A DNA stretch of 64,000 nt from Ginglymostoma cirratum (Eukaryota), in NCBI GenBank assembly GCA_024137785.1, contig JAHRHZ010000098.1, positions 24,183,434-24,247,433 of the forward strand, read 5' to 3'. The position numbers and the translations under genes were made by a program. The notes under the pieces were generated by a model. It saw only the letters and a list, made by a program, of their open reading frames with translations. It was not told the DNA's origin and did no database searches. This document shows positions 4,130-61,620 of the stretch, piece by piece. Each line of letters begins with the position of its first letter. Within the stretch, counting starts at the first letter, position 1.

Positions 4130-4798
4130 AGTCTGCTCATGGAGGACATGGGATAAGTTAATAGGAACGGGGTAAGGGCAAAGGATGGTAAGTGGGGGGA
4201 ATTGTTTTTTACAAATTCAGAATCATCAGCTCTGAAGAAGGGTCACTGGACCTGAAACGTTAACTCTGATTTCTCTCCACAGATGCTGCCAGACCTGCTG
4301 AGACGTTCCCGCAATTTCTGTTTTTGTTTCTGATTTCCAGGATCTGCATTTCTTTCAGATTTGTTTTGTTTTGTTTTATGAGTTGTCACTGAGTGAGTAA
4401 GGGCAATGAATGGCATAGGAGGAAATGTGGTAGGGCATGGTTGTCTTAATGGTATGAGTGATCATGGGGCTGAGTGGAGGGCATAGGATGTATGAGGATT
4501 ATGGAGGTTGGTGCAGGAGCATAACGTGAAATGCATAGGACATAAGTAGAGTGTGAGGGAGGGGGTATAAGGGATGTGGGCTGGAAGGATGGTTTTTGTT
4601 TTGTAAGTAACTTTCCACAAAGCTCATCTGCACAACCAGCACCCTCTGCTCATGTTCTGGTGTCACCGGGCCCAACTCCTGGCTGGTCCTGATCGAAAGT
4701 CTAACATTCCAGGGCACATTTTCCCAGCTCAGGTTTGTGGAGCTGGGCGTTTCACTGACTGTACTTTCCCAACCCAAGAATAAAAATCCAGACCTTTG
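4130..4798. mobile_element. Probable non-autonomous Harbinger-type DNA transposon relic
   Basis: GGCAT(A/G)G-rich subrepeats; end ...TAAAAATCCAGACC resembles the AAAATTCAACCC terminus at 26483; interrupted by a PLE module at 4231. Confidence 0.35.
4229..4360 (+). mobile_element. Penelope terminal module (family B) with hammerhead-ribozyme motif
   Basis: CTGAAGA-A-GGGTC-ACTG-GACCT-GAAACGTTA at 4232-4262, then CAGATGCTGCCAGACCTGCTGAG; same family at 37870 and 61468. Confidence 0.8.
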
Positions 4799-5482
4799 TG
4801 TTAGAAGGGAGGACAGAGATGAGGGACAGGGGTAAGAACTGAAAGGAAATGGTCGCTGTGAATGAAAAGATAAATATTTGGAGTGTTATGTCATCCTCTA
4901 GGACCATCCTGGAATAATAGCAACGTTTGTTCACAGTGGAGTAAGTTGTTTTCTTCACAGTGATCCAAGGAGAGAGATAGGATTGAGGACTTGTTTTATA
5001 ACTTCAATCTTTTCTTACAGCTGTCAGATGCAATCATGTGAAATATGCTAACTGAATTTCAGCACAAAACAATACCCTGCCTGAGATATCATTTCAACGA
5101 TGAGGCAGAGACATGCAACTGGGTTGCATCAGTATTTTATGAAATATTATTCAGTAGAGTCAAGGGTGGTAACTCTTAAGATTGTGCAATATGTGTGAAA
5201 GGAGCAGTGTAAATTTCCAAAATTGCATTTTAGAAGCTTATAGAGTCAATGTGTCTAAAATCGAGTTTTAGCTCAAAAGCTGAAACGAAAGCTTAGCTGT
5301 TGAAGTAAATGATCACTTAAAGCTTTATGGCCAATAATACTTCACAGCTTGTCCCACAAATCACCAATGCTTTTGGTCATGGAATCTTGCCCAGATAGGT
5401 TGACTGTAAACTCTTCTAAACTAAAGGTGATAAATCATAAGGTGAAGTTGCCATTGTCCCAGAGGAGAGACAACTAGTGGTC

Positions 5483-5620
5483 TACTTAAGGTGGGAGCAA
5501 ATTTCTGCAGACTTTAGAACCTGAACCGAAATAACAAGTGCTGGAGATCTCAGCGGCTCAGGCAATGTCTATGGATGCTGCTGACCTGCTGTGATCTCCA
5601 GCACTTTTTTTTGTTTTCAG
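5483..5620. mobile_element. Fold-back Penelope terminal module (family C), centre deleted
   Basis: Arms AGTGCTGGAGATCTCAGC / GCTGTGATCTCCAGCACT; flanked by TAGTGGT duplication (5476-5482, 5621-5627); related to 55091-55298. Confidence 0.7.
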
Positions 5621-5714
5621 TAGTGGTGAGTTTAATCTGAGGGTCATCATGTTTCAGGTGAGGTTGAGAAGGTAGGACCTTCATGGTAACCTTAGCCAGT
5701 GCAGGAAAATCTAT

Positions 5715-5905
5715 TGACAGCTGTGGCTCACAGGCAGCATACTTGCCTTAAAATGAATAGGTTTTTTGTTTTAAATTCCACTGGAAGTGATTGTAAGCAG
5801 CATCACTTAGGTTGATGTTGCAGCCAAGTGTTGAAACTATTGGAGGTGCAGTCTTTGCAATGCTGAGCTAAGTTGAAGCCTCGTCTGCCTGAATGTAAGG
5901 GATCC
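5715..5905 (+). mobile_element. Old Deu-domain SINE remnant
   Basis: TTGGAGGTGCAGTCTTTGCAATG...GCCTCGTCTGCCTGAATGTAAGGGATCC resembles the Deu-SINE core as recalled. Confidence 0.45.
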
Positions 5906-6439
5906 AAAGTAAAGCAGAAGGTGCTAAAAGTATTCAGGCTGCAAACATGGAGAGAAACAGAGTAAATGACTACTCAGATTTCCATCTTCTGCAGTATTTT
6001 GTTTTTGTGTCACATCTCATGTTTCAATGCTACACCTCCCTGGTGTAACATCCTGTGGATTGAGCCCTGCTACTCCCAGACTCATTACAAAAGTTTAAGA
6101 TTTAGTAAAGGTATGCAAAATTTGAAAATTGCCCAATTTATCTGATTTTTTTCCGACCCAAGTTGATGAAAAGCAGGGCCAGGTTTTTGTACTTAACAAG
6201 AATTACTATTTATCACAAATAGATATATTCTAGCTACAGAAAACAATTGTGAATCATTGATATATAACTCTTTCAGTTAAAATCCTAACCCGTTATAAAA
6301 CTCTTGCGCACACATACAGTTCAATGCAAAAACAAATGGTGTTATTAGCAGTGGGAAAAACTGGGAAGGCAGTTCAACGTTCCCTGTCCAAGTGGTTCAC
6401 TGATCCTTTGAACATGTCAGGACCTGATACTCCATGATC

Positions 6440-9264: not shown

Positions 9265-9800
9265 CAGATGACATGTCCATCCTTGGCCTCCTGCAATGCC
9301 ACAGTGATGCCCCCCGAAGGCTGCAGGAACAGCAAATCATATTCAGCCTGGAAACCCTGCAGCCCAATGGCATCAATGTGGATTTCACAAGCTTCAAAAT
9401 CTCCCCTCCCCCAACCGCATCCCAAAACCAGCCCAGCTCATCTCCACCTCCCTAACCTGTTTTTCCTCTCACCTCAAGCCACACCCCCATCTCCTATCTA
9501 CTAGCATCATCCCGCCCCCTTGACCTGTCCGTCCTCCCTGGACTGACTTATCTCCTCCCTACCCCCCTACCTACACTCACCTTTACTGGCTCCATCCCCG
9601 CCTCTTCGACTTGTCTGCCTCCTCTCCACCTATCCTCTCCTCTATCCATCCTCTATCCGCCTCCCCCTCTCTCCCTATTTATTTCAGAACCCTCTTCCCC
9701 TCCCCCATTTCTGATGAAGGGTTTAGGCCCGAAACGTCAAGTTTTCCTGCTCCTATGATGCTGCTTGACCCGCTGTGTTCATCCAGCCCCATGCTTGTTA
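9265..9800 (+). mobile_element. 5'-truncated Neptune-type Penelope element (GIY-YIG C-terminus, C/T-rich UTR, hammerhead module)
   Basis: DDMSILGLLQCHSDAPRRLQEQQIIFSLETLQPNGINVDF matches the C-terminus of the copies at 30003 and 42131; 11-bp TSD CCCCCTTATAA at 9254-9264 and 9801-9811. Confidence 0.9.
9707..9742 (+). ncRNA. Minimal type I hammerhead ribozyme motif in Penelope terminus
   Basis: ATTT-CTGATGA-A-GGGT-TTAG-GCCC-GAAAC-GTC-AAGT: canonical CUGAUGA and GAAA boxes, stem II GGGU/GCCC, palindromic ACGU helix III, GUC cleavage triplet, 4-bp helix I ATTT/AAGT. Confidence 0.8.
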
Positions 9801-10104
9801 CCCCCTTATAATATTGTCTGTTTTCCAGTGCCTTTTCATGAGGTTATCTGTTTTTACCTTTCGTTGTACATAATTCAGTGTTTATACCATTCGTCCTTCA
9901 GTCTACCTTGCTGACGGAATGGGGACTTCTCTCTAATATCTACTGCCATTTGTCTAAATTCCTTAACGTTAATTCATTAGTTGCAGTAGAAAAAGACGCA
10001 GGTAGAGGTCTCAAATTTAAGTTTGCCTTTGATCACATTTCACATGGCATCAGTCACTCCCACACATTCCCTGAGCATCTTGTTTTAATGAAGCTTACAT
10101 AATC

Positions 10105-16003: not shown

Positions 16004-16343
16004 GCATCTCACACTCAGAAAGGCTCTGAGAACAGGTATCAGGGCCATCTCCAATTTTTGTGCATCCAAGAAGGATTCAGCCCAATGTAAAACTACTTGA
16101 AGTTAACATTGTTTTGGAATATTTGCAACTATCCTCCTCACAAAGAGATGGAAATACTTATCAATACATCCCACAAGGATGCCTTGACAACTGGCTTTAT
16201 AGAGTTTGAGACCCCTTTGCCAAGAAAATTGCAAGTAGTTTTTGAAAGCTTTGATGACACATCTCTCAGAAACTGCAGGATCTGACTGATTCCTTCCTGT
16301 TGTCAAGTGGGCACACTCAGATCCAAAGCCAAATGAAAGTGAT

Positions 16344-16472
16344 AATAGGTACTGCAGATGCTGGAGAATCCGAGATAACAAGGTGTGGAGCTGGATGAAC
16401 ACAACAGGCCAAGTAGCATCATAGGAGCTCTGCTTGGCCTGCTGTGTTCATCCAGCTCCACACCTTGTTATC
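16344..16472. mobile_element. Fold-back Penelope terminal module (family A), ribozyme core deleted
   Basis: ~43-bp arms GATAACAAGGTGTGGAGCTGGATGAACAC.../...GTGTTCATCCAGCTCCACACCTTGTTATC; 15-bp TSD CCAAATGAAAGTGAT at 16329-16343 and 16473-16487. Confidence 0.85.
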
Positions 16473-16832
16473 CCAAATGAAAGTGATGTGGTTAAATGTC
16501 TGCCTTTGTGATGCACTGCTATCTCCTGAAGAGATCTTTCCAGCCACCTCTCTCAAATGTTTGTTCATGCTGGATTGTTGATACATAAGCATGCTCTGAA
16601 ACATCAATACAGTTTTCTTGAAGTCCATTCCAGGTCTCAGATGCTCTGAGACAAGAGTCACTTCAATTCCAAGCAGCAGTGCTTTAAGAACCTAATTGTT
16701 TGTCACCAGGCTTGGATACTTGTAAAGTGAAACAGCTGTTGTAAAGAAGCATGTGCACGTAAAACCACTTTGTGATAGAAAGCAAGTGTTTTGATGTATA
16801 TCTCTTTATTAATTTTTAAGATCTATGACAGC

Positions 16833-16989: not shown

Positions 16990-17019
16990 GTATAACTATT
17001 GAGGCTGTAAGAATTCTGT

Positions 17020-17515: not shown

Positions 17516-19029
17516 GGATGTATTAGGGTAGATTTCCCTGACCCCAAGTTATTGTGAAAAATCAATTCCAAGTAGCAGGGTTGGGCTACCCTGTATCTGT
17601 GAGCATACAGCAATAACATGGGAGAGGACTAACTGAGGGAGTAAGAAAGGAAGAGATATGAAGAGAGATGTAATGGAATATAAGCAGCACATCTTCTAAT
17701 TGTGTGGCTTCATTGCTGTCTACATTACTGCACTGATGCCAATTCTGGGAAATGTCTCTCTAAAGTAAGGGCATGCAGATTAGAATTTTCATGTTGGGAA
17801 ATAACTGGTGCAGGACTATTGTGTTAAAAGTTATTATTTTAAGCTGTAAATGTAGTTTTTCTGAGATACAACACAGAAGTATGGATAGCATTAATTGAAC
17901 TGTTCTTGATCTTCTTATGAAGTTCCAGTATTGAACAGGGATCTGTAGCCTTAATATTAGAGGTACATCTTTGATTCATGAGGTTAGGCTTTCACTGACA
18001 CACCAGCTGATGGCATTTACTATGAGTCATGACTCCTGGCTGCCCAGAGAGTGGCACCTTGAAGAAATCCAATTCTACCTCTTAGTGCCACTCACTCCCT
18101 TGCTGCTTTTGACATCTTTCTGTGTTGACAACAAAATCATTCTATTTTTGGCATGCCAATGGATTACATCATTTCTGTCACAGTCGCAAGATTGGCAAAT
18201 TTTTAATTCCAATCTACTGGAATTCATAGCAGAGTCACGACACCATGGGTGTAATGTAGGAGGAACCTTGGCAGTATGACCCTGTGTGCAGTCAGAATGT
18301 AGATGATTTTACACAGAGATGAGCTTATAAATTATTACACATACTGCTGAAGCTCTGGAAATGCATGGCAAGATTCTGGGCCCTCTCCAGGTATAATTAC
18401 ACGGTTGTTGTTTGAAGAGTACATGAAGATGGAGGGTGCAAAGCAATTTCAATGTTTGTGTAATAATGTATAGCATGTAAGAGTACAGGATGTCTGAATC
18501 TTAATTACTTCATTTATGAATTGAAGACATCTCCAGCTAATTTGCAGGGATTTGTCCTTTCATGAGTGTCAACAGGTTTTGAAGGTATTGGGTCATAAAT
18601 ATGAATCAGGTAGCTACAATGTTAAGTTGCCATTTGAAAATCAAATGAAATTTATCTTCCAAAGCTGGAAATGCAAATGTCTGTGTCTACGTCTAGTATT
18701 ATTATAGCAAATTGTAACTGACCTGTAGGCGGAATACTTTATGAAATGATTCAGTTCCCCTTCAGGATCAGTGAGGTACACCCAGGACAGACTACACTAA
18801 GGACTGGTAAATGAGCCCTTGCATTCGGTGTATTGGAAATCCCAGATATTGCCAAATGGAATTTATGTCAATTCAGCACATCTCAAAATTGTTGTTATGA
18901 TCAAATGGACTAAGTCATATGCAGCATATAAGCTAAGTGAAGTAGAACTAACAAAGAGAAAATCTGAGTGAGGAAATGCTTCTATGTGTTGTATTTAATC
19001 CACAAGCAAAGTTAATGCTATAACAACTA

Positions 19030-19122
19030 CGAATAGAAAGTGCCGGGGAAACTCAGCAGTTCAGGCAGCATTTCTGGAGAGAGATACAAGACTTAATGCA
19101 ACATGATGCATCTTCAGAACTC
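19030..19122 (-). mobile_element. Degenerate Penelope terminal module
   Basis: GGAAACTCAGCAGTTCAGGCAGCATTTCTGGAGAGAG...TCTTCAGAACT is related to the reverse complement of the family B module. Confidence 0.55.
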
Positions 19123-27755: not shown

Positions 27756-27769
27756 TGAGAGAATATTGG

Positions 27770-28490: not shown

Positions 28491-28887
28491 ACCTACCAAA
28501 TCATTCTTATATATTACAAACAACAGAGGCCCCAGCACTGATGTTGTAGAACACCACAGGTCACGGACTTCCAATCAGAAAAACACCCATCCATAACTAA
28601 CCTCTGTCTTCTATGACCAAGTCAATTTTGTATCCAATTTACCAACTCACTGTGGATCCCATGTAACTAATCTTCTGGACCAGCCTGCCATGAGGAATCT
28701 TCTCAAATGCTTTAGTAAAATCCACATAGATAATATTGTTACATATGTTATCAATTGTCTCCATCACTTCCACAAAAAAAAGCGATCAAATTTGTGAGAT
28801 CAAATCAAATTTCTCCCAACAAAGCCATGCTATAATTTCCTGGATTATCCCTGTTGCCCTTCTTAAACAAGGGAGGAATCTTGGCTA

Positions 28888-28976
28888 ACAAGCATGGGGC
28901 TGGATGAACACAGCAGGTCAAGCAGCATCATAGGAGCAGGAAAACTTGACGTTTCGGGCCTAAACCCTTCATCAGA
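28888..28976 (-). mobile_element. Stand-alone hammerhead-bearing Penelope terminal module
   Basis: Reverse complement of ~9710-9798 with one difference; intact CTGATGAAGGGTTTAGGCCCGAAACGTC; 11-bp TSD AATCTTGGCTA (28877-28887, 28977-28987). Confidence 0.9.
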
Positions 28977-30002
28977 AATCTTGGCTATTCTCCAATCTTT
29001 TAAGACCTCACCTGTAGCTACAGAGGATGCAAAGATCTCTGTCAAGACCTCAGCAATATCCTCCCTTGCTTCCCTTAATATCCTGAGATTGATCCTGTCA
29101 GGCTCTGGGGATTTAGTAACCTTAATGTTTTTCAAGATACCAGCACTTTCCCATTCTCAATATGACCTTTCCTAGTAAATCAACATATTCCTCCCTAATC
29201 TTGCTAATTTCCATGTCCTTCTCCTTGGTGAATACTGTTGCAACGTATGCATTAAGGATCTCAACCACTTCTTCAGGCTCCACGTATACAGTCCTGACCT
29301 TGTCCTTAAATGGACCTAGCCTTTCCCTCGTTACTCTCCTACTCCTAATATATATATAAAATGCTTTGGGATTTTCCTAAATCCTACTTGGAAAGGACAT
29401 TTGATGGCCCCTTTTAACCCTCCTAATTCCTTGTTTAAGTTTATTCCTGTTTTCTTTATATTCTTCAGGGGCCTTGTCTGATTTCGGTTTCCTAAGCTTT
29501 GCAAATGCATCCTTTTTTCTTTTTGGCTAATCTTTCAATATCTGTTGTCATCCAGGGTTCCTGAATATTGTCATCCTTATCTTTCATCCTCACAGGAACA
29601 TGCTGGTCCTGAACTCTGATCAACTGGCCCTTAAAAGACCCTCAAATATCGGATATAGATTCATCCTCAAACAGTCACTCCCAATCTAATTTCTCCAGTT
29701 CATGCTTAATACTATTGTAATTAGTCTTCTCACAATTTAACAATTATGCCCAAGGACAAGTCTTATTCTGATCCATAACTATCTTAAAAACTTAAGGAAT
29801 TATGGTCACTGTTCCCAAAATGCTCCCCTACTTGAAACTGGCCAAGTTCATTCCCAATCTTAGGCCCCTTCGTGAGTTGGACTATCTACATTTGTTTCTA
29901 GGTACCCTCCTGAATGCACCTAATAAATTCTGCCCCATCTAAGCCCCTGGTACTAAGGGAGACCCAGCAAGTGTTAGGAAAGTAAAGTCACCCTTAAAAA
30001 AG

Positions 30003-32034
30003 TGACCTCCCACCCACAGCCTCCAACCTCATCGTTCCCCAACCCCACACCGCCCGTTTCTATCTCCTTCCCAAAATCCACAAACCTGACTGCCCTGGTC
30101 GACCCATTGTCTCCGCCTGCTCCTGTCCCACCGAACTTATCTCCACTTATCTTGACTCCATTTTCTCCCCACTGGTCCAGGAACTCCCCACCTACGTCCG
30201 TGACATCACCCAGGCCCTCCACCTCCTCCAAAACTTCCGATTTCCTGGTCCCCAACACCTCATCTTCACCATGGACGCCCTTTACCTATATACTCGCATT
30301 CCCCATGCAGATGGCCGAAAGGTGGTCCACTTCTTCCTATCCTGCAGGCCCGACCAATCCCCCTCCACTTACACCCTTATCCGCTTAGGTGAACTCGTCC
30401 TCACCTTTAACAACTTCTCCTTCAATTCCTCCCACTTCCTGCGGACGAAGGGGGTGACCATGGGTACCCGTATGGGCCCAAGCTATGCCTGCCTCTTTGT
30501 AGGTTACGTGGAACAGTCCCTCTTCCGTAGCTACACTGGCCCTATCCCCCACCTCTTCCTCCATTACATCGATGACAGTATCGGTGCTGCCTCGTGCTCC
30601 CATGAGGAGTTTGAACAGTTCACCCAATTTACTAACACCTTCCACCCCAACCTTAAGTTCACCTGGACCATCTCCGATACCTCTCTCTCCTTCCTGGACC
30701 GCTCTGTTTCCGTGTCTGGTAACGACCTGGAAATCGATATCTATTTCAAGCCTACCGACTCCCACAGCTACCTCTCACCCACCTTCCTGCAAGAATGCCA
30801 TCCCCTATTCCCAATCCCAAGGAATTCCCAATTCCTTTGCCTCTGCCGCATCTGCTCCCGAGATGAGGCGTTCCACACCTGGACATCCCAGATGTCCTCG
30901 TTTTTCAGGGACCACAACATCCCCTCCACAGTGGTCGAACATGCCCTTGACCACATCTCATCCCTCACACCCCCTCCCCGCAATAACAACAAAAACAGAA
31001 TCCCCCTCGTCCTTAGGTACCACCCCACCAACCTCCGGATTCAACAAATCATCCTCTGCCACTTCCACCACCTGCAATCTGACCCCACACCAAGGACATT
31101 TTTCCCTCCCCACCCTTATCTGCCTTCCGGAGGGACCACTCTCTCCGTGACTCCCTTGTCCGCTCCACACTCCCCACTAGCCCCACCACTCCTGGCACTT
31201 TTCCCTGCAACCGCAGGAATTGCTATACTTGCCCCTATACTCTCCCCCCTCACCCTCATCCCAGGCCTCAAGAAAACCTTTCACATTAAACAAATGTTCA
31301 CCTGCACATTTGCTAATGTGATATATTGCATCCGCTGTTCCCGATGTGGCCTCCTCTACATCGGGGAAACCAAGCGGAGGCTTCAAGACTGCTTTGTGGA
31401 ACACCTACGCTCGGTTCGCGACAGGTGACTGCACCTCCCAGTCGCGTACCACTTCAACTCCCCCTCACACTCCTTGGACGACATGTCCATCCTGGGTCTC
31501 CTCCAGTGCCACAACGATGCCACCCGAAGGTTGCAGGAACAGCAACTCATATTCCACTTGGACACCCTGCAGCCCAATGGTCTCAATGTGGACTTCACAA
31601 GCTTCAAAATCTCCCCACCCCCGACCTCATCCCAAAACCAGCCCAGCTCGTTCCTGCCTCCTTGACCTGTCCATCTTTTCTCCCACCTATCTGCTCCTCT
31701 CACCTCAACCCCCACCCCCACCTCCTACCTACCGGCCTCATCCCCGCCTCGTTGACCTGTCCGTCTTCCCTTGACTGACCAACCCCATCCTAACTCCCCA
31801 CCTATACTCACCTTTACTGGCTCCATACCCACCTCCTTGACCTGTCCATCTCCTGTCCACCTATCTGCTTCTTTATCCACCTTCCCTCTGCCTCCCCCTC
31901 TCTCTCTATTTATTTCAGAATTCTCCTTCCCCTCCTCCATTTCTGAAGAAGAACCCAGACCCGAAGCGTCAGCTTTCCTGCTCCTCTGATGCTGCTTGGC
32001 CTGCTGTGCTCATCCAGCTCCACACCTTCTTATC
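30003..32034 (+). mobile_element. Neptune-type Penelope-like element: RT + GIY-YIG endonuclease, frameshifted, 5'-truncated
   Basis: ORF 30271..31428: KGVTMGTRMGPSYACLFVG, HYIDD, NVIYCIRCSRCGLLYIGETKRRL; C/T-rich UTR; degraded hammerhead motif at 31943-31970; approximate TSD CTTAAAAA. Confidence 0.92.
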
Positions 32035-36644: not shown

Positions 36645-37240
36645 ACAGAGATGAGAGGAAAGTTGACCTTTTGGGTTGGGACCCTTCTTCAGAAATGTGG
36701 TAGCGGGGGAGGGTGGAGAGAGCTCAGAAATAAATGGAGAGAGGAGACGTGGGGCTGGGCAAGGTAGGTGGGATGGTGATAGGTGAGTGCAAGGAGGGAG
36801 TGGTGGGGATTAGTCAGTGAGGTGGGAGGGCTGGGTAGGTGGGAGAGAAGATGGACAGGTTGTATCAGGTCAAGGAGGCTGGGATGAGAGGGAGGGTTGA
36901 TCATGGGATGAGGCAGGGGTGGGGAGATTTTGAAACCAGTAAAATCTACATTTAGTCCATCAGGCTGTAGGCTCCCAAGGTGGAATATGAGGTGCTGTTC
37001 CTCCAGTTTGCAGATGGCATCATTATGACACTGGAGGAGGCCCAGAATGGACATGTCACCCAGGGAGGGGGTGTTAAAACGTTTCACAACTGGAAAGTGA
37101 TGTAGTTTGTCGCGTACAGAGCGCAGATGCTCTACAAAACGGTCTCCGAGTCTCTGCTTGGTCTCCCCGATGTAGAAGAGGCCACATCAGGAGCAACAGA
37201 TACAGTAGGCCAAGCTGACGGATATGCAAGTTACCCCATG
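36645..37240 (-). mobile_element. Neptune-type Penelope 3' fragment
   Basis: ORF 36689..37087 GDMSILGLLQCHNDAICKLEEQHLIFHLGSLQPDGLNVDF; degraded hammerhead motif at ~36665-36692. Confidence 0.88.
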
Positions 37241-37869: not shown

Positions 37870-37981
37870 AAAACCAAAAGAACAGTTCTGCGGAAGGGTC
37901 ACTGGACCTGAAACATTAACTCTGATTTCTTCTTCACAGACGCTGCCAGACCTGCTGAGCTTTTCCAGCAACTTCTGCTTT
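37870..37981 (+). mobile_element. Stand-alone Penelope terminal module (family B)
   Basis: CTGCGGAAGGGTCACTGGACCTGAAACATTA; 14-bp TSD TGGGACTTCTCAAG (37856-37869, 37982-37995). Confidence 0.85.
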
Positions 37982-38274
37982 TGGGACTTCTCAAGGTTGT
38001 GAATTTAAATTATCAAGTACATAAACGTCAGTTCCTTCTTTTTTTCTTCTTTTTCAGACCGGAGTGTTTTAAAAGCTTAATTCAAACACTCAGATGTAAA
38101 GGCCTAAAATGCCCTGGAAAAGGTGACATATTTTGCCTGTTGTTCAAGCAATCTTACTTGGGAATAATTGGGCCCAAAACAAGTTGGTAACTGAATGTTC
38201 ACAGATCTTTGACAGACACGCTTTAGTCAAAACTCTAGGTCCCTAAATGTTTTATGACAATTACAAATAATCTA

Positions 38275-41648: not shown

Positions 41649-42130
41649 TTGGTGAGGCCTCAGCAGGAGTAATGTGTCTAGTTCTGCTCGCTTGTTATAG
41701 ATAGGATATTATTAAGCTAGAGAGGGTTTAGGAGGCATTTATCATAATGTTGGTAAGTATGGAAGGTTTGATTTATAAAGAAAGGCTGGATAGACTAGCA
41801 CCTTTTTCACTGGAGCGTAGGAAGTTGAGAGGTGATCTAATAGAGGTTTATAAAATCATGAGGTGTGTAGATAGAATCAATAGTAGGTGTCTTCTCCCTA
41901 GGATGGGGGATTTCAAGTCTAGAGGGCATATTTTTAAGGTGAGAGGAGATAAATTTAAAAACGACATGAGGCACAAATTTTTTTACACATAAGGTGGTTC
42001 CTGTGTGGAAGTGATTGATGCAGACATAGTTACAACATTTAAAAAGCACTTAGATATGTACATGAATAAGAAAGGTTTGGGATATGGATCAGGAGCACAC
42101 AGGTAGGGCTAGTTTAATTTTGGACTATAA

Positions 42131-43386
42131 GATAACAAGGTGTAGAGCTGGATGAACACAGCAGGCCAAGCAGCGTCAGAGGAGCAGGAAAGTTGACGTT
42201 TCAGGTCTAGACCCTTCTTCAGAAATGGGGGAGGGGAAGAGGATTGTGAAATAAATAGGGAGAGAGGGGGAGGTGGATATAAGATGGATAAAGGAGAAGA
42301 TACGTGGAGAAGAGACAGACAGGTCAAAGAAGCGGGCATGGAGCCACTAAAGGTGAGTGTAGGTGGGGAGTTAGGGAGGGGATAGGTCAGTCCAGGGAGG
42401 ACAGGCAGGTCAAGAGGGCAGGATGAGGTTAGTAGGTAGGAGATGGGGCTGGGGCTTGAGGTAGAAGGAGTGGGTAGGTGGGAGGAAGGACAGGTCAGGG
42501 AGACGGGGACAAGGTGGGCTGGTTTTGGGATGTGGTAGGGGGAGGGAAGATTTTGAAGCTTGTGAAGTCCACATTGATACCATTGGGCTGCAGGGTTCCC
42601 AAGCAAAATATGAGATGCTGTTCCTGCAACCTTTGGGTGGCATCGTTGTGGCACTGCAGGAGGCCCAGGACGGACATGTCGTCTGAGGAATGGGAGGGGG
42701 AGTTGAAATGGTTCGTGACTGGGAGGTGCAGTTGTTTAGTGCGAACTGAGCGTAGGTGTTCCGCGAAGCGGTTCCCAAGCCTCCGTTTGGTTTCCCCGAT
42801 GTAGAGGAGGCCACAATGGGAACAGCGGATACAGTATGCCACATTAGCATATGTGTAGGTGAACATCTGCTTGATGTGGAAGGTCTTCTTAGGGCCTGGG
42901 ATGGGGGTGAGGGCGGAGGCGAAGGGGCAGGTGTAGCACTTCCTGCGGTTGCAGGGAAAAGTGCCGGGTGTGGTGGGGCTGGAGGGGAGTGTGGAGCTGA
43001 CAATGGAGTCATGGAGAGAGTGGTCCCTCCGGAAAGCAGATAAGGGTGGGGAGGGAAAAATATCTTTGGGGGTGGGGTCGGATTGCAGATGGCAGAAGTG
43101 CCAGAGGATGACGTGTTGCATCCGGAGGTTGGTGGGATCGTACATGAGGACGAGGGGGATTCTGTTTGGGTTGTTATTGCGGGGAGAGGATGTGAGGGAT
43201 GAGATGTGGGAAATGCGGAAGACACGGTTCTCGACCACCAATTGGGGGGAAGTTGTGTTCCTTGAAAAACGAGGACATCTGAGATGTTCGGGAGTGGAAT
43301 GTTTCATTCTGGGAGCAGATGTGGCGGAGGCGAAGGAATTGGTAATAGGGGATGGCATTTTTGCAGGAAGGTGAGTGGGAGGAGTT
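42131..43386 (-). mobile_element. Neptune-type Penelope element (RT thumb, Cys linker, GIY-YIG, hammerhead module)
   Basis: ORF 42495..43358: GTFPCNRRKCYTCP linker, NVAYCIRCSHCGLLYIGETKRRLGNRFAEH...RLQEQHLIF..LQPNGIN; CTGAAGAAGGGTCTAGACCTGAAACGTC at 42195-42222. Confidence 0.93.
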
Positions 43387-45679
43387 GAACTATGTTCGGC
43401 ATGGACCGGTTGGACCTAAGGGTTTGTTTCCATGCTATATGACTCTATGAAGCTGCCTGGTCAGGAAGACACCCTTAAGTAGTTGTTAATTAATTGTTAA
43501 TTGGGCACTTAAGCATCTTATGTGGAGTTGGCACCGAAAGGCTCATCCATAATTTACTTGAACGGAGGTAGGAAAGCATTAGGCAGACATCCTGATGACA
43601 ACTCGCCTCATTTTCCAGGTTTCCTACCTCCTTTCTCACCTGCTGCAAGATCAGGAGAATCCACCCATTGACTTTTTCTATCTTCAAGTAAAATAATAGA
43701 AATTCATTAAAGATTAACTGAATGCAGTTTGGAACATAATGAGGCGTAAGCTGCTAAAAGCTCAGTGCATTATAGCAGAAGGGCAATTGACCTATATAGT
43801 GCTTTACTGAGTAAGCACTTTGGAAGTTTTTTTGGATTCACTTTCCTCAGAAGGCTTAATAATTGCGGTCATCCCAAGACAGAGAAGAACATGCAGGATT
43901 TTCTGACACAATGAGCTTTATGGATGAATGGGTTTTTCACTCCAGGTTTTCTTCTGTTCATTAGAGCATGGTTTTCTATAACCTCAGCACTGTATAATCA
44001 GTTTAGCCTGACCAATTTATCAATGTTTAATATGCCTGACTAGGTTCTGTTCAGAAGCAGGAGCAGCTGAAGCTGAAGAAAACAGTTCTACTTTAGACCA
44101 GCCATTGCTGACGCTTTATGCTAATTTGTATTGATTCCCTGATGCACTGCAGCTCCTTACTATAGAGTACAAATGCTGATTTGTATTTCCTAAGTTGTGT
44201 GGAGTACAGCAGTGCATGGCTATTAAACAGCAGGGGAAACACCAATGAAACAAGATGGTACTATTTACCATTTCACTGTCGTACAATTCCACGAGTCAAC
44301 TTTCATTCTGAGAACAGAATACAAATCAGCATCGACTTGATTGGATTCCCTCAACTATGAACTAAAACATTCATTAATAGTATCTTCACCCAAACATCAT
44401 TCTGATGTGGACATGGTTATTCGAATTCTAAATGTCAATAATTTATTCATCTGTAACAATCATTGAAAGAATGAGTCCGCATCTAATTAAACTCTGGAGG
44501 ATTTAAGTGCAGCTCATGGCAGGTATTTCTTCGCTTGAATCTATGCCAATGACTAACACTGTGTCAGAAATACTTCCTTTTTGAGATCTTTGAAAATGTT
44601 GAGTTCCTCAGCATCTGTAATTCTGGCCAAGTGTGGCTCACTTCGACTGTGAGAGACAACTTGTTCCTACAAATGACTGACGAAAATGTTGCCCGGACAG
44701 TCGCACATTACTCAGAGATCTAAGTTCACAGAACGGGACAGCAGAATGAAAATGCCCCACAGCTGTCCCAGTTAGGCTCAGTCTAACAACAGGAAATCCG
44801 TTGGGAGTTCATCAGTTTGCAGGTAAATCTCATTGCCAATATAACAAAGTAGCCCATAATCCATTTCCCAATTAGATAACATGAGATATATTTAAATATC
44901 GAAAAGAATTCAATGACAAGCATTTATGAACAGTGTTAAGTGGCTTCAAATTACATTCTGACTAAAAATAAGGTAACCCCATGTCTCTTGGTTATTATTT
45001 AAGTCATTGTGCTCAGCTGCAAGGTGGTCCATTAGTTGGGTAGTGGAAAAAGAGGTGGCGAAAAATATCAATGCTCAGCTGAGACTAGTGTTGTCATGTT
45101 ATCTTGATTCGAGACAGCTGAGTAGGAAATTTCTAGTGTGAACACTGAGCATCAGTGAATACGTGATAACATTTTGACCAGGGGTTGTTAAGCTATTTGA
45201 CCAGATTAGCAATGATTCCCTTACCTTTAGATGACTGCTGTGCCTGAGAATTCTGCAAAAAGGGCCTTCTGTTATTCAAACGGCCAGGAATCCTAGTATC
45301 AATCTGCAAAAGAGATCTCCATAGTAACCATGCCCAGTTATAAGCACTAAGAGCTGTATTCTGGAATTAAATGTCTGTATGTTCTGTAGTTTAAATGTCC
45401 AGCATACACTCTGTGAAAGGGTTAAGTATGTTAACTTAAGTCGTTGGGGAGCTGGTGAGTCAGGGTGTAGAGTGCCAGTTGGGTCAGTTGACTCCTGGTA
45501 CCAGTGGGAACGGCATCAGAGCTCCAGTTTGGGTCAACTATAAGTGTAACGTGTCAGAGGGGTGTCAGGTCCTGCATGGTTGAGTTGGGTGGGCATTGGG
45601 TTGAGTCTGGGTGTTGAGTCGAGGATGCGGTATTGGGTCTGATGGTAGAGGGAGGTCAGGGTTGGTTGTCAGATGGGGT

Positions 45680-45773
45680 TAACAAGGTGTGGAGCTGGAT
45701 GAACACAGCAGGCCAAGCAGCATCATAGGAGCAGGAAAGCTTGACGTTTTGGGCCTAGACCCTTCATCAGAAA
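45680..45773 (-). mobile_element. Stand-alone Penelope terminal module (family A)
   Basis: Minus strand CTGATGAAGGGTCTAGGCCCAAAACGTC (GAAA box mutated) plus GCTGTGTTCATCCAGCTCCACACCTTGTTA; sits inside a G-rich DNA-transposon-like relic (~45420-46075). Confidence 0.85.
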
Positions 45774-46724
45774 TAGGGTGTTGGGTTTTGGGTCAGAGAT
45801 GTCAAGGATCAAGAGTGGGGATTATAATGGCGGGGATAGGGGAGCAGGGATCAATGATAAGTCCGGGGTTCAGTTTAACAGTTACACAGGTATTAAAGTA
45901 ACTTTTTAATACTTGAACTCTTTCTGAGTAACTATTCAGCATAAGTGAGTTGGAAACCATTGAATTCCTGGACTTTAAGGAACCTTCTTTGGAGAGCTAC
46001 AGATGCAGGGGAATTGCTCATTAGAATTTTCAATTTCATAAGGAATTCCCACAGAGTCAGCTGTGTCAGGAATTCTGCATTGCCCTGGCATACAAATCCA
46101 GCCTATGTTGCCCCAACAACAATCTGCCATTTGAATATCTGGGCTATAGTATATTGCCCAACACTTCTGTTGGCAAAGCAGAGGACCAAAGAACTGGGCA
46201 GAAATCTGACAGAATGAATCTCTAAGAAACTTTTCCACTTCTGTCAGCCCCGGTTGATGGAAAACCAAGGACTTTATGTTTCGTGTCCCTAGAAAATAGT
46301 ATCACAGAGGATGGAATTTTTGAACAATTGCTTTCAATTTTCCAGTTTTGAAAAAAGACAGCAATCATTATGACAACATTTGTAAACAAGCTGTCAAAAA
46401 GGTTTGACCCTGTCTGCCTGATGGTGGCAGAGCTAGGGAAGCTAAAGGCCCTCTGAGTGAGGCGTGCTTCTGGCCACTACTAGCCTGACTCACATGGGAC
46501 CTCAGGCTAAGGACACTCACATAGTTCTGGGTCTCAGCTCCAATAGCTTCATAGACGTCTCATATTCCCAGCCTGCACCATGCCAAGGTATTTGTTTGTC
46601 TTCAAAGCTAAGCACAAGTTAATGCAACAGGGATCCTCCACTAGTGTTATTTAAGGGGTCAGTGATCCAAGATGAGGTGGTCTTGAGTAAATTCTGCTGT
46701 TGGAAAGTTGTTGGAAGTACTGTG

Positions 46725-47305
46725 GTAACAAAGTGTGGAGCTGGAGGAACACAGCAGGCCAGGCAGCATCAGAGGAGCAGGATAGCTAATGTTTCGCGTC
46801 GGGACCCTTCTTCAGAAACGGGGAGGAGGAGGGGAGCTCAGAAATAAATAGAGAGAGGAGGGGTGGGATGGTGATAGGTGAGTGCATGTAAGCGGTGGTG
46901 GGGATTGGTCAGTGAGGTGGGAGGGGCGGATAGACGAGAGAGAAAAGATGGACAGGTTGTGTCAGGTCAAGGAGGCAGGGATGAGATGGAAGGTTGGTCA
47001 TGGGATGAGGCCAGGGGTGGGGAGATTTTGAAACTGGTAAAATCCATGTTTAAGCCATCGGGCTGTAGGCTCCAGAGGCAGAAAATGAGCTGCTCTTCCA
47101 GTTTGCGGGTAGCGTCATTGTAACACTGGAGGAAGCCAAGGATGGACATGTCACCCAGGAAGTGGGAGGCGGAGTTAAAATGGCTCATGACCGGAAGGTG
47201 TTGTCATTTGTAGCGTACAGAATGCAGATGCTCTACAAAACGGTCTCCGAGTCTGCGCTTGGTCTCCCCGATTTAGAGGAGGCCACATCGGGTGCAACGG
47301 ATGCT
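46725..47305 (-). mobile_element. Neptune-type Penelope 3' fragment
   Basis: ORF 46967..47188 GDMSILGFLQCYNDATRKLEEQLIFCLWSLQPDGLNMDF; hammerhead-like motif at ~46789-46815. Confidence 0.88.
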
Positions 47306-47939
47306 GTGATGTTTGGTTTGAAGAACTATGGTGATTCATTGAGTTTAGCAGGAAGTTTTGCTGCACTTTCATAGGCAGGATAGAAAATTTAGTGACATGT
47401 CCAGATGAAGGCTGTAAGAGTTGCATGGGATTGTATTTGGATTGACAGTACAATAGAGAAATGGATCAGAGTCTGTGAAGAGTGCATGCTCTGTGAGGGG
47501 GAAGGATAAGGCAGGGAGGAGGCTTTGGGAATTTTGGTCTGAATGGAATGCCTGGGAATGCCACAATTCCATTAGAATGTCATCCCTTCATCACCACTGG
47601 CCCACTATACCCCAACTTTCAATTCATCCAGTTGACATTGTGTCAAACTTTGACTGAATCTTAACTTTAACCATCAACTCCTCTTGAGGATTGGGAGTAT
47701 GACATTGATTAATTTTTCTTCACCAAATGCCCTGACTCACTTTGCTCTGCCAGTTTACCAGTGAATTTTGTAATATTGACAAATGTTCAGTTACCTTGTG
47801 ACTTACATATCTTTCTAACTTTTAATTTTGACTTGAGGAGGAATTCAGATTACAGGAAGTTTCTCATGCACTCTTGTCATGTTTCATCTTCCAAACACAT
47901 TTTCCACATGGCACTGGTGGAATCTCACTCCGGCTTTCA

Positions 47940-55090: not shown

Positions 55091-55298
55091 TAGAGGAGCA
55101 AATTAGTGCAGATGCTGGAACCTGTGCTGAAAACAACAAATGCTGGAGATCACAGTGGGACAGACAGCATCAGTGGAGAGAGAGCAAGCTAATGTTTCGA
55201 GTCAAGATGACTCTTCATCTAGACTCGAAACGTTAGCTTGCTCTGTCTCTATGGATGCTGTCTGACCCATTGTGATCTCCAGCATTTGTTGTTTTCAG
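55091..55298. mobile_element. Fold-back Penelope terminal module (family C) with head-to-head hammerhead halves
   Basis: 77-bp arms 55127-55203 / 55222-55298; minus strand GATGA-A-GAGTC-ATCTT-GACTC-GAAAC; 10-bp TSD TATCA(A/G)GTAA at 55081 and 55299. Confidence 0.85.
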
Positions 55299-57297
55299 TA
55301 TCAGGTAAAAGAACTGTTAAGGGGCGGCTGAATGCCTTTAAAAGTGAGGATTCTGTAAGTAGTGTCCAATACACTGACTATTCAAATCCTGGAGCAGGCA
55401 GTCTTTTAGCAAGGATTGCTTTTATAAGAAGAGCAAGCAGATTAGGAATTAGACTGCAGGTCTCTCTGAAGTGTTTGTTGCTAATAGCCACAGGAGCAGT
55501 GATTCCACCTTCCAACTGTAGTATGATGTTTGCCCCTAACTTAAGTAAATGTTGGGGTGTCTTGAATACAGCAAACACACTGAACATCCAGAGGTCAAAA
55601 CCTACACAAAGCATGCTAAACATATGCATATTGAAATTGCCTCAGTGCTTGTTAATACATGGCATTTGTTTAATGTAAGGTGGTCACAGCAAAACATTGC
55701 TGTGTTTAGCTACTACATTGATGTTGTACATTGGGAATGTGTCAGTCTATTACTTGATGGAACTTTGTGGTGGTTTTATGAGTCTCGCCAGTTGGATGGA
55801 AGTCAGTGAAAGATTCGAGCTGCCTATTTTGGAAAGACTACTAATGAGGCAATGGTGAGGAAACCAAATAGGTTCCACCAAGAATGATAAAAATCAGGTC
55901 AGAGGTCCCCAAGTGAGAATTGCTGGCCAGATATCCACAGCTCTTGTGCTCAGCAACTCTTGGTTCCAGAAGGCTAATCAGTGGGCTCCCATGGTTGTGG
56001 AGGGCCCAGATTGTAGCTAAGTAATGTATGGCTGAGATTTATGGGCTGGGAATTACAAGGGAGAGGATGCAGGCAAGATGGAACCAAGAGCAGGGAATAC
56101 TTCTCATCATCACACCTCCTTCCCAATGTCCAGTAACTTGGTGAAGTACTGATTGCCTTTCTTCAAGACACCCTCTGCACTCAAGGTGACAAGTGTCCCC
56201 CACACTTTCCCTGGTCATGGATGATGTCTAGGCCACCTGCAGATAGGTTAATCCCAGCAGAAGCAAGACAAAGTCTTTAAATGGCTATTATTCAACATGA
56301 GTTTGTCCAATAAACTGGTGCAAAGGAGATGTAACCAATGTAAAATGGAGTGGAGTTCTGTATTACCAGCTTTTAACTTTGTTGGCTTTTGGGCATTTTT
56401 ATATCATGGTGATTTTTTCCACAATACATATTTCATCTTTAGTTGTGACTTTAACAATAATGAGAACAGGGTGAACTTTGTTTGATTTAAGTTTAGACCA
56501 AACATGTTCTGCCACTACCCATTTAGATTGTTACTTTCATACCTGACATTTTGTCTATGTCCGGTTCCTTTAGAACCGTCAACTTACAGAGGGGCTGTTA
56601 GAATTTTCTGCACAAGGCTTGTCCATAGGCTCTGCACTGCTAGCTGGCTCTGAAGGTCACACACACCTTAACATTCATGCTTTGGGATCGTTCCAGGTTG
56701 TTGCTGGAGACATCATCAATCAGATCTGTGTATAGATGTATTAAGTAAGTCACTTGTGTGTTGTTTTCGTGAACTAGCAAATTAATTTCTTTCCCCAAGA
56801 CCAACCATTGGAACAAAGAGAGGATGCTGCAGTTTGAAGGTTAGTCATACCCCTGAAAGTCTGAGAGCTATGGGCTACATTTTACACAGATACTGAGTTG
56901 CATGCTCATTCACATTAAGTACTGGATGAAGTGGAAAGGAATCCACTTACTAATGTATATCTCATACGTAACCGTCAGTATTACCCTGGTTACTGTTGTG
57001 GTGCTTTCACTTTAAGGCAATCCATCAGTACTCAAAATGTACAGGAAGGTGACAGTTTTGCCCTGGATTGATCAGTGCATCCCTCTGGGGCCTTGGCTTA
57101 TGTCACCTCTGTGGCAGCTGAGAAGACCAGTTTAAAATAGGCAAAATGATTTCCATTCATTCACGAGTCACTGTAGGATAAACTCTTGGCTTGCATATAA
57201 ACAGCTTTTTGCCTACGGGGTACTCAATTTTGCTGTTTGAGAATACATCATCCCAGAGAATCTGAGTGCCCCATTCATGAAGACACTCAAAACAAAG

Positions 57298-60200: not shown

Positions 60201-60497
60201 AGCCTTAGAATTAAACGGAAGACCTTTTAAAATGGAGATAAGGAGAAACTTCATCAGCTAGATGATGGCGAATCTATAGATATCACTGCCACTGAAGGCT
60301 GTGGAGGCCAGACCATTGAGTATATTTAAGACGGAGATCGATAGGTTCTTGATTGTCAAGGGGATCAAGGGTTACAGGGAGAAAGCGGAAGAATGGGTTT
60401 GAGAAACTTATTAGCCATGATTGAGTGGCGGAGTACACTCAATGAGCTGAACGGCCTAAATTCTGCTCCAATTTCTAATGGTCTTATGGTCTTATAG
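57298..60497 (+). mobile_element. Long CR1 LINE: ORF1 SGNH esterase end, APE endonuclease, RT; non-functional
   Basis: 57299..57601 RIVICGLLPEPRA..REVNTWLKEWC..DSLHQNQAG; LKVLFLNARSIRSK..DIVGITETWL; DVIYLDFKKTFDKV; LYINDL..KFAYDTKIG; (ATGGTCTT)n tail; stops, frameshifts and a deletion near 58835. Confidence 0.95.
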
Positions 60498-60539
60498 ATT
60501 AAAAGCCCATTCACAACTCTTCAGATTCTGAAGCAGTCC

Positions 60540-61325
60540 GTTTTGAAACGCAGCAAGGCCTAGACACCATCCCTGCTTGGGCTAGCAAGTGACAAGTGAC
60601 ATTCATGTGACACAATTGCTAAATAATGACCATCACCGACAAGAATGTGTACAGCTATTGCCCCTTGATGACTGCCAACATCAGGTGGCTACCATTGCCC
60701 AGAACATGAAGTTAATCTGCAACATAGGTACTGTAGCCACAATATCAGGTCAGAGGCTACAGTATTAAATCACCTCTTGTCTCCCCAGTGCCTTTCTACC
60801 ATTTACAAGGCACACATTAGGAATGCAATGGAATACTGTCCACTTGTCTAGATAGGTGCAGCAACAAATACATTCAGGAGGCAACTGTCCATCCAAACAA
60901 AGCATACACTTGACTAACATCCCATCCACCACCTTCAACACTCACTACCTTCACCTCCAATGCCTAGCGGCAACAGTGTATACTCCCTACAAGATGCATT
61001 GTAGTAACCCACCTAGTCGTCTTCAAATGTACTTTTCAAACCTATGACCTCTCCCACTTAGAATGGCAAGAGGAATAGATGTATGGGAGAACTATTTGCT
61101 GCAACTTTCCATTCAAGCCATGCACCATCCTGACTCGGAATCACATAACAGTTATTTCACTGTTGCTAGGTCAAATTCCTTCTTAACAATACTTTGAGAG
61201 TATCTACACTCTAAAGATTGCAGCTTTTTAAGAAGACAGCTCACCACTAACTTAACAGGCTAATTAGTAATAGTCAATGAATGCTGGCCTAGCCAGCGAA
61301 TTCACACTATATGAATGAATAAAGA
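60540..61325 (+). mobile_element. CR1/L2-clade LINE 3' portion (GGGCAATAAATGCTGG-tail family)
   Basis: TIYKAHIRNAMEYCPLV motif; tail ATGCTGGCCTAGCCAGCG...ATGAATGAATAAA. Confidence 0.75.
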
Positions 61326-61467
61326 AACTATACTATGAATATCTGTACACCACAAAGTGGAAGATCGAATTATGGTACAGGAGGATAGTGAGTGCAGACT
61401 TAAGGAGGATAAGGAAGGGTAGTATATAGGAGTTGCAATCACAATAAATGTAATTTTGATTTTAAAA

Positions 61468-61620
61468 AAAGCAAGAAATGCAGATGCTGGAAATCTGAAA
61501 CAAAAACAGTCAATGTTGGAGCAACTCAGGAGGTCTGGCAGCATCTGGAGAGAGAAAAGCAGACTTAACGTTTTGAATCCAGTGACCCTTTCTTTTGATG
61601 AAGTTTCATTGGCCTTGAAG
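61468..61620 (-). mobile_element. Penelope terminal module (family B), degenerate
   Basis: TGCAGATGCTGGAAATCTGAAACAAAAACAG...TTAACGTTTTGAATCCAGTGACCCTT is related to the reverse complement of 4229-4350. Confidence 0.75.

What the first reader, a model, noticed from the sequence alone, without database searches (positions are those of the whole stretch)
4229..61620. About a dozen hammerhead-ribozyme motifs in three Penelope terminal families with covarying stem II
Seen: CTGA(T/A)GA-A-stemII-GAAAC-GT(C/T) motifs, intact or degraded, at 4232(+), 9711(+), 28948-28975(-), 31943(+), 36665(-), 37888(+), 42195(-), 45743(-), 46789(-), 55185-55219(-) and ~61570(-). Stem II changes sequence between families but keeps pairing: GGGT/GCCC, GGGTC/GACCT, GAGTC/GACTC. 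Helix III is a short palindrome (ACGT, AACGTT). Established: Penelope-like elements carry minimal type I hammerheads with palindromic helix III that are thought to cleave as dimers. Inference: about one motif per 5-6 kb would make this an extremely abundant self-cleaving RNA motif in this genome, possibly affecting host pre-mRNAs that read through it.
Basis: partly seen in the sequence, partly recalled or inferred. Interest (0 to 1): 0.7.

Follow-up and report, generated by a model that had tools for sequence, protein, structure and literature searches.

The report
Penelope retrotransposon stubs carrying minimal hammerheads
The motifs are real but of a known kind: they are the miniature hammerhead ribozyme motifs at the ends of Penelope-type jumping genes, very numerous in this genome (at least 90,000 intact cores), mostly decayed, likely copied from RNA that had not cut itself, and probably of little consequence for host messages.

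Summary
Real, and of a known kind. All 11 listed sites exist, but only 9711(+) and 28975(-) are intact; two more carry a CpG-decay wobble and the rest have broken cores. They are minimal type I hammerheads in the pLTR/tail end of Penelope-like retrotransposons (RT, GIY-YIG, Neptune-type linker), as described by Cervera and de la Pena 2014. Genome-wide there are at least 90,710 exact intact cores in four families (one per 48 kb, not one per 5-6 kb). Stem II and helix I covary between families. Against an effect on host pre-mRNA: intact single copies in introns lie 24 sense to 29 antisense; only 3 of 49 same-strand neighbour gaps are under 2 kb; poly(A) reads show no pile of ends at the cut. Copies begin 3-5 nt upstream of the core (102 of 285), almost never at the cut site (1 of 285), so templates were likely uncut RNA. 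A third of copies form head-to-head pairs, 42 of 44 with one long and one short tail. The scan has noted this 53 times in at least 13 genomes.

The parts
4227..4367 (+). Family B short module (hammerhead 4232-4261 plus long tail); G10.1-U11.1 wobble, helix I 1 bp
5529..5622 (.).
   Evidence: (hairpin)
9265..9803 (+). Family A 3' fragment: end of the endonuclease ORF, pLTR, hammerhead, short tail; 11-bp target-site duplication
9707..9742 (+). Intact minimal hammerhead: helix I AUUU/AAGU, core 9711-9738, stem II GGGU/GCCC, ACGU palindrome; predicted cut between 9738 and 9739
16338..16474 (.).
19022..19096 (-).
28884..28979 (-). Family A solo module beginning at helix I; intact hammerhead 28975-28948; 11-bp target-site duplication
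29998..32035 (+). Longest family A copy: RT ORF (PF00078, E 2e-4, below the curated cut-off) running into the GIY-YIG domain, pLTR, decayed hammerhead 31943-31970 (stem II broken, A15.1>G), short tail
36659..37231 (-). Older family A 3' fragment; decayed hammerhead 36692-36665 (G12>A, 15.2 changed); tail mostly missing
37883..37983 (+). Family B short module; decayed hammerhead 37888-37917 (A6>C, C11.1>T, G16.2>A); 14-bp target-site duplication
42130..43415 (-). Family A 3' fragment with CX4CxxC linker and GIY-YIG domain (PF01541, E 1e-4, at the curated cut-off); hammerhead 42222-42195 with G10.1-U11.1 and 2-bp helix I
45677..45778 (-). Family A short module; hammerhead 45770-45743 with G12>A
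46720..47307 (-). Older family A 3' fragment; hammerhead 46815-46788 with a stem II mismatch and G16.2>A
55093..55300 (.). Family C head-to-head pair joined inside the hammerhead: minus arm (long tail) lacks C3-U4 and has G16.2>A; plus arm (short tail) lacks CUGANGA; stem II GAGUC/GACUC
61465..61593 (-). Family B module truncated inside the CUGANGA box, G12>A

Best explanation
These motifs are the minimal hammerheads that sit in the terminal repeat of several Penelope-like retrotransposon families, and they are so numerous because most insertions are short stubs, likely made when reverse transcription started in the tail 65 or 100 bases behind the ribozyme and ran to the probable start of an uncut transcript 3-5 bases in front of it. 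Shown: position in the element, family structure, covariation, copy numbers, where copies begin and end, target-site duplications, decay at two CpGs. Inferred: the 5' boundary is a Pol II start in an initiator-like motif that is also the 5' strand of helix I; both strands of a staggered cut are primed, one from each tail site, which gives the head-to-head pairs; the ribozyme is kept by selection on the active master elements, where it would cut only as a dimer and probably only with the element's protein; inserted copies decay neutrally and single copies in host introns would cut rarely or never.
For: Same-strand RT and GIY-YIG upstream of family A motifs; GIY-YIG similarity upstream of long family B copies and, weakly, of one family C copy. 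Architecture matches all four hallmarks in PMC4209133 (extra base 9a, G10.1-C11.1, palindromic 15.2-16.2, families with compensatory changes). 5' ends: 102 of 285 family A copies begin at -40 to -26 relative to C17, 13 within 3 nt of the cut, 1 exactly at it; similarity to the pLTR falls to background 4-5 nt upstream of C3 in both A and B. Head-to-head 76, tail-to-tail 1, same-strand 6 within 300 bp; 42 of 44 family A pairs have one long and one short tail (p 6e-11 against 0.5); the exact-match script found a flanking duplication of 8-17 bp for 19 of 44 pairs. In vitro precedent from a Poseidon element: both strands cut and extended, two tail start sites, uncut RNA as main template, protein-assisted ribozyme (PMC11167929). 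Predicted energies disfavour the active dimer: -5.1 against -18.6 (two monomers) and -28.8 kcal/mol (best cofold) for 9707-9742.
Against: No transcript start was observed: one search listed no place where many molecules begin, and no extra G from a cap stands out at the junctions. The in vitro precedent is a Poseidon element, while family A has a Neptune-type linker. No full-length copy with a 5' hammerhead was found in the sample. Helix I is only 2 bp in several family A subfamilies (AGC or AAC after the cut), which is weak for a working ribozyme. No exact flanking duplication was found for 20 of 44 pairs.
Confidence: 0.75

Rival explanations
1. The intact copies are active in host transcripts and cut pre-mRNAs often enough to matter.
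For: At least 52,937 copies keep the core, GUC and 3 or more bp of helix I; the family is abundant in poly(A) RNA (37,232 of 12.9 million records read from run X21 lie on one 601-base element, both directions); strictest class 11 sense to 20 antisense in three CSMD-like genes; PMC6765202 (passages) says PLE hammerheads cleave as dimers.
Against: Intact single copies 24 sense to 29 antisense (p 0.58; sense share 0.32-0.60; Fisher against decayed copies p 0.36); exact family A cores are about twice as dense in these introns (59 in 1.53 Mb) as genome-wide (81,998 in 4,358 Mb); 3 of 49 same-strand intact neighbour gaps are under 2 kb; a single min-HHR showed no cleavage in PMC4209133; no read-end pile at 9738/9739. 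Caveat: the LINE control showed no antisense bias either (87 sense, 70 antisense), so the test has no positive control, and a mild effect is not excluded.
Confidence: 0.08
2. The sharp 5' boundary is not a transcript start but a preferred break: the endonuclease nicks, or the cDNA anneals to the target, at the ATT/GTT just upstream of the core, or the enzyme falls off after the folded ribozyme.
For: PMC11167929 reports an ATT cutting preference; flanks are AT-rich and the duplication at 28975 overlaps the ATT; no cap-derived G.
Against: A longer AT-rich stretch about 25 nt further upstream collects only 3 of 285 ends (-55 to -61); the boundary sits in an initiator-like motif in two families with different sequence (CCATTT, TCAGTT; consensus recalled); an extra T at the junction (26 of 35 in A, 11 of 13 in B) fits untemplated A added at a template end.
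Confidence: 0.25
3. The short modules and hairpins are a non-autonomous family (retrozyme- or SINE-like) that multiplies as its own unit through ribozyme-cut, circular RNA.
For: Most copies lack any coding sequence; some same-strand tandems exist (34 pairs under 1.5 kb; L182-L184); animal retrozymes are proposed to derive from pLTRs (bioRxiv 10.64898/2026.07.22.740005).
Against: No tandem array of the module in the window; the junction of nearly every pair is different, as expected for separate insertion events; copies keep the 31 bases that cleavage would remove; short and long copies share the same subfamily variants.
Confidence: 0.1

Closest known systems
Minimal hammerheads (min-HHR) of metazoan Penelope-like elements (Cervera and de la Pena 2014, PMC4209133; parts 1-2 of 4 read, 2 of 3 supplementary files searched)
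   Same: Type I order, no loop 3, palindromic 15.2-16.2, extra base between 9 and 10.1, G10.1-C11.1, several families with compensatory changes, mostly single dispersed copies, opposite-strand neighbours, found in fish Neptune, Poseidon and Xena elements.
   Different: Stem II is 4-6 bp here (7-8 bp in their Schistosoma families); at least 90,710 intact cores against about 9,000 (Xenopus tropicalis) and 4,000 (coelacanth), with different search rules; no shark entry in the text or files I could search (file 1 not searchable).
Poseidon element PAc of Anolis (Frangieh et al. 2024, PMC11167929; parts 1-2 of 4 read)
   Same: Hammerhead followed by a tail with two end points; genomic ends at two sites; no RNA-seq ends at the cut site; uncut RNA as template.
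   Different: Family A has a CX4CxxC linker (Neptune or Nematis type); I saw no shared reading frame in the tail; 5' ends heap at the ribozyme's front edge, which I did not see reported in the parts read.
Inverted-pLTR insertions with one-sided tail and target-site duplication (Arkhipova et al. 2013, PMC3846280; Craig et al. 2021, PMC8557442; passages read)
   Same: Head-to-head inverted truncated copy, 30-40-bp tail on one end only, duplication of the target.
   Different: Here shrunk to about 140-260 bp and very common (146 of 455 copies in adjacent pairs); duplications mostly 13-17 bp against 8-10 bp in Adineta.
Non-LTR retrozymes (Cervera and de la Pena 2020, PMC7229834, passages; Li et al. 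2026 preprint, parts 1-2 of 5)
   Same: Type I hammerheads in non-coding repeats at very high copy number (up to 120,000 in axolotl), link to PLEs.
   Different: Retrozymes are head-to-tail arrays with canonical hammerheads that make circular RNAs; these copies are single or head-to-head, with minimal cores.

Membership tests
Minimal type I hammerhead (min-HHR) | CUGANGA and GAAA boxes around stem II, then UH | tested here: met
   genome-wide exact counts
Minimal type I hammerhead (min-HHR) | Extra base between 9 and 10.1; G10.1-C11.1 pair | tested here: met
   9a = A in 153 of 154 family A copies, U in most family D copies; 10.1 G in 147 of 154; 11.1 C in 132, T in 22 (CpG decay)
Minimal type I hammerhead (min-HHR) | Palindromic 15.1-16.1 without loop 3 | tested here: met
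   ACGU in all four families
Minimal type I hammerhead (min-HHR) | Compensatory changes in stem II and helix I between families | tested here: met
   Stem II GGGU/GCCC or ACCC, GGGUC/GACCC, GAGUC/GACUC, GUCACC/GGUGAC; helix I AUUU/AAGU, AGUU/AACU, AGCU/AGCU. In family B, 59 double changes at 10.2-11.2 against at most 14 expected from 677 single changes. Only four families, so few independent events; no R-scape.
Minimal type I hammerhead (min-HHR) | Helix I of 4-5 bp | tested here: inconclusive
   4 bp in A1, B and C; 2-3 bp in other family A subfamilies and in D; 48 of 85 descriptor hits have 3 or more
Minimal type I hammerhead (min-HHR) | Self-cleavage as a dimer | not testable with these tools
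   Energy model disfavours the active dimer; no read-end pile in one fragmented poly(A) library, which is weak evidence
EN+ Penelope-like element | Single ORF with RT and C-terminal GIY-YIG | tested here: met
   29998-31428 holds the RT (YIDD motif) and runs into the GIY-YIG motif; PF00078 and PF01541 hits, weak
EN+ Penelope-like element | Hammerhead in the pLTR, sense to the ORF, followed by a tail with optional 30-40-bp extension | tested here: met
   Tail ends at +60-70 (119 of 267) and +95-102 (120 of 267)
EN+ Penelope-like element | Inverted 5'-truncated copy and target-site duplication | tested here: met
EN+ Penelope-like element | Full-length copy between two direct pLTRs | not tested
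   None in the 1.6-Mb sample; not searched genome-wide
Neptune or Nematis clade | CX2-5CxxC linker between RT and EN (PMC8557442) | tested here: met
   CX4CxxC about 40 residues before the GIY-YIG motif in 42495-43415; family A only
Neptune or Nematis clade | Placement in an RT tree | not tested
   No reference RTs were on hand
Non-LTR retrozyme | Head-to-tail tandem units each with a complete hammerhead | tested here: not met
   No such array in the window; 6 same-strand against 76 head-to-head neighbours within 300 bp

The most novel reading that the evidence does not exclude
In these elements the hammerhead is the first thing transcribed: the initiator is the 5' strand of helix I. The motif is kept less as a scissor than as an RNA handle, whose ACGU palindrome pairs two transcripts or holds one in the protein dimer so that both strands of the cut target are primed, one from each tail site. 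The genome then holds on the order of 100,000 paired insertions that record this step, with strict long-plus-short asymmetry.
Probability: 0.15. Interest if true: 0.65.

Novelty: new member of a known kind. Interest (0 to 1): 0.3.

Why it matters
As a finding about ribozymes it is ordinary: min-HHRs in PLE ends have been known since 2014. Two things have some value. First, scale: about 21 exact intact cores per Mb, against about 4 per Mb for axolotl retrozymes (120,000 in 28 Gb, from PMC7229834 and the 2026 preprint), tolerated in introns on both strands, which suggests that such motifs are nearly silent in host RNA. Second, the stubs are a large natural record of how PLEs insert, an open question: a sharp 5' boundary at the ribozyme's front edge, none at the cut site, and 42 of 44 pairs with one long and one short tail give testable constraints on the two-strand priming seen in vitro.

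Tried and rejected
Rfam scan: no hammerhead family at E up to 10; the five weak hits are chance or hairpins. My first genome pattern had the wrong loop length and counted 92 variants only; it is not in the total. One search was meant for family C but had the family B spacing; it revealed a small A-U subfamily instead. Single-strand folding gave no significant z-score for any of 7 modules; the monomer folds into a hairpin that hides the core. Copies starting at the cut site as a sign of in vivo cleavage: not found (1 of 285). A cap-derived G at 5' junctions: not seen. Target-site duplications on single modules: 6 of 101 had 10 bp or more against 1 of 501 in shuffled pairs, so present but found for a minority. 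A 3' splice site at the 5' boundary, as in Drosophila virilis: rejected, there is no AG at that place. LINE orientation as a positive control: no bias. Run X22 gave only 27 reads. Whether this window itself is transcribed or intronic is open. Lunse et al. 2017 on dimer cleavage was not held; I know it only through PMC6765202 and recall. Searches that found nothing in print on shark PLE hammerheads: (open-access library only); supplement file 1 of PMC4209133 and the preprint's supplements could not be seen and may list a cartilaginous fish.
Full report
Observation. A strict core search and direct inspection found a hammerhead core or remnant at each of the 11 listed sites. The motifs fall in three sequence families (A: 9711, 28975, 31943, 36692, 42222, 45770, 46815; B: 4232, 37888, 61590; C: the pair at 55093-55300). 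A structure descriptor (both boxes, stem II of 3 or more bp, palindrome, UH) accepts 4 of them: 9711 and 28975 are fully intact with a 4-bp helix I, while 4232 and 42222 have G10.1-U11.1 and 1-2 bp of helix I. The other seven have substitutions at A6, G12, A15.1, 15.2 or 16.2, a broken stem II, or lack the first box. C17 of the 9711 copy is at 9738. Rfam found no hammerhead.

Chance and abundance. The same descriptor gave 85 hits in 160 fetched stretches (1.6 Mb, 67,852 bases of them N) against 1 in a Markov control and 1 in reversed sequence. Exact patterns over the 4,358-Mb genome counted 81,998 family A cores, 8,136 family B, 59 of a B variant, 229 family C and 288 of a fourth family D that is absent from the window: 90,710 in all, one per 48 kb, reversed controls 0. 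52,937 family A copies also keep GUC and 3 bp of helix I. These are lower bounds. Counting remnants by their tail, there are 440 in 1.53 Mb and 15 in the window, about one per 3.5-4 kb; 68 of 432 sampled A and B copies are intact by a looser rule. Decay is concentrated at the two CpGs inside the motif: 22-29 of 154 family A copies are changed at each of C11.1, G12, C15.2 and G16.2, against 0-5 at other core positions (copies were picked by similarity to the boxes, which lowers the second figure). In print, Xenopus tropicalis has about 9,000 min-HHRs and the coelacanth 4,000 (PMC4209133), and axolotl up to 120,000 retrozyme copies (PMC7229834), so the count is high but not a record; the density is about five times the axolotl's.

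What carries them. [quoted passage not shown] A CX4CxxC motif precedes the endonuclease, the mark of the Neptune and Nematis clades in PMC8557442. Long family B copies have a related endonuclease upstream (39-61% identity), and one family C copy a short match. No carrier was established for family D. The host is a large-genome vertebrate; earlier scan notes call it a shark, which I did not test.

Covariation. Stem II pairs in all four families with different sequence (GGGU/GCCC or ACCC; GGGUC/GACCC; GAGUC/GACUC; GUCACC/GGUGAC) while G10.1-C11.1 and ACGU stay fixed. Within family B, pair 10.2-11.2 shows 677 single changes and 59 double changes against at most 14 expected; 34 of the 59 have U at position 7 against 3 of the first 100 ordinary copies, so they form a small subfamily (counted by hand from the listings). 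The number of independent events is small. Against strict constraint: several abundant family A subfamilies keep only 2 bp of helix I.

Anatomy of the copies. Copies were collected by their tail, not by the ribozyme (455). Of 285 family A copies, 86 reach further than 40 nt upstream of the cut, 102 begin at -40 to -26, 57 inside the core, 13 within 3 nt of the cut (1 exactly at it) and 27 further down. Among copies with the first box, 95 of 162 (A) and 61 of 70 (B) lose similarity to the pLTR 3-5 nt upstream of C3, that is at the 5' strand of helix I, often with an extra T at the junction. That place reads CCATTT in A and TCAGTT in B, both like a Pol II initiator (consensus recalled). Tails end at two sites, +60-70 and +95-102. 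146 of 455 copies stand in adjacent head-to-head pairs; within 300 bp there are 76 head-to-head, 1 tail-to-tail and 6 same-strand neighbours. In 42 of 44 scorable family A pairs one tail is long and one short, whereas single copies split 84 to 93; 19 of the 44 have an exact flanking duplication of 8-17 bp, 20 none by the script. Junctions differ from pair to pair and often hold A/T runs or short re-copied pieces.

How it most likely works. Shown are the positions, ends and counts above. Inferred: the element's transcript starts at helix I; the protein primes reverse transcription in the tail, and on the 5' copy of the repeat it reaches the RNA's end after 95-130 bases, which yields the stubs; longer copies come from read-through of the 3' repeat; both strands of a staggered cut are primed, one at each tail site, and the two cDNA ends are joined. 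This follows the in vitro behaviour of the Poseidon element PAc (both strands extended, two start sites, uncut RNA the main template, ribozyme active only with protein; PMC11167929) and the known inverted-pLTR layout (PMC3846280; PMC8557442). Because the stubs keep the 31 bases that cleavage would remove, their templates were likely uncut. The ribozyme would be under selection only in active master elements. A break caused by the endonuclease, by microhomology or by stalling is the main rival for the 5' boundary (0.25).

Effect on host pre-mRNA. I sampled 1.2 Mb between exons of three minus-strand genes with CSMD-like order of CUB and Sushi exons (gene identity inferred) and 0.4 Mb between CUB exons on a fourth contig, where a single gene is less sure. 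Descriptor hits: 44 sense, 41 antisense. Intact single copies: 24 sense, 29 antisense (p 0.58); decayed 125 to 112 (Fisher p 0.36); three CSMD-like genes alone 20 to 25. The strictest class leans antisense, 11 to 20 in the three genes and 3 to 3 in the fourth, which this sample cannot separate from chance. Exact family A cores are about twice as dense there as genome-wide. A LINE control was also unbiased (87 to 70), so there is no positive control. Same-strand intact neighbours, needed for a dimer in one transcript, are under 2 kb apart in 3 of 49 gaps. The energy model puts the active dimer at -5.1 kcal/mol against -18.6 for two monomers and -28.8 for the best cofold (family A) and at -16.1, -18.0 and -24.0 (family B); it ignores tertiary contacts and protein. 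In poly(A) run X21, 37,232 of 12.9 million records read lie on 9250-9850 in both directions, with no place where many molecules begin or end; these reads come from the whole family, and fragmented libraries show ends poorly. A strong effect is unlikely; a mild one is not excluded. The 2026 preprint reports a small deficit of retrozymes in Xenopus introns.

Novelty. The motif class, its place in PLEs, its abundance in lower vertebrates, opposite-strand neighbours and one-sided tails are all in print. I found no paper on shark PLE hammerheads, nor on 5' ends heaped at the ribozyme's front edge (open-access library only). Within this scan the same elements have been noted 53 times in at least 13 genomes, including the front-edge boundary; I reached that result before looking. 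What this report adds is the genome-wide count, the intron strand test and the 42-of-44 asymmetry. Verdict: new member of a known kind, interest 0.3.

Noticed in passing
L154, L161-L166: A fourth hammerhead family (stem II GUCACC/GGUGAC, U at 9a, 288 exact copies) with a TATA-like box about 45 nt upstream and a different tail; no carrier ORF established; not in the window.
   Followed up: partly
window 4285-4345, 9755-9800, 55130-55300; L009, L048: All three families share complementary blocks in the long tail (GATGCTG and CAGCATC) that could close a long hairpin around the two tail end points; folding z-scores were not significant.
   Followed up: partly
window 4262-4285 and family B copies: The family B tail begins with a pyrimidine run, CAG and ATG, like a 3' splice site; in introns this might matter more than the ribozyme. 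Not tested.
   Followed up: no
L103:2196-2349, L160:5707-5843, L085:6705-6833: Junctions of head-to-head pairs hold two or three re-copied pieces of the element's first 12-15 bases, like templated insertions from end joining or repeated re-priming.
   Followed up: no
window 9250-9850 (run X21): The family makes up about 0.3% of records read in one poly(A) run; A>G (42 places) and T>C (22) lead the differences, which may be editing of hairpin pairs or only subfamily variants.
   Followed up: no
L184 (G000:C1:1769500-1773000), L182, L183: Loci with same-strand copies 94-501 bases apart, the best natural candidates for cleavage as a dimer in one transcript.
   Followed up: partly
window 57281-60230 and 11144-11668, 15403-15915: LINE-like fragments (GDSL-like ORF1 PF13472, endonuclease PF03372); CR1/L2 type by recall.
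   Followed up: partly
window 16834-16930, 25965-26061, 13778-13906, 21643-21721, 26151-26279: Another dispersed repeat with a tRNA-like head, probably a SINE.
   Followed up: no
window 21850-22010: Tandem repeat of 25 bp, 6.6 copies.
   Followed up: no
G000:C62:43.9-44.8 Mb: About seven split CUB domains on one strand over 0.9 Mb, with no Sushi hit listed between them; gene or cluster not identified.
   Followed up: no
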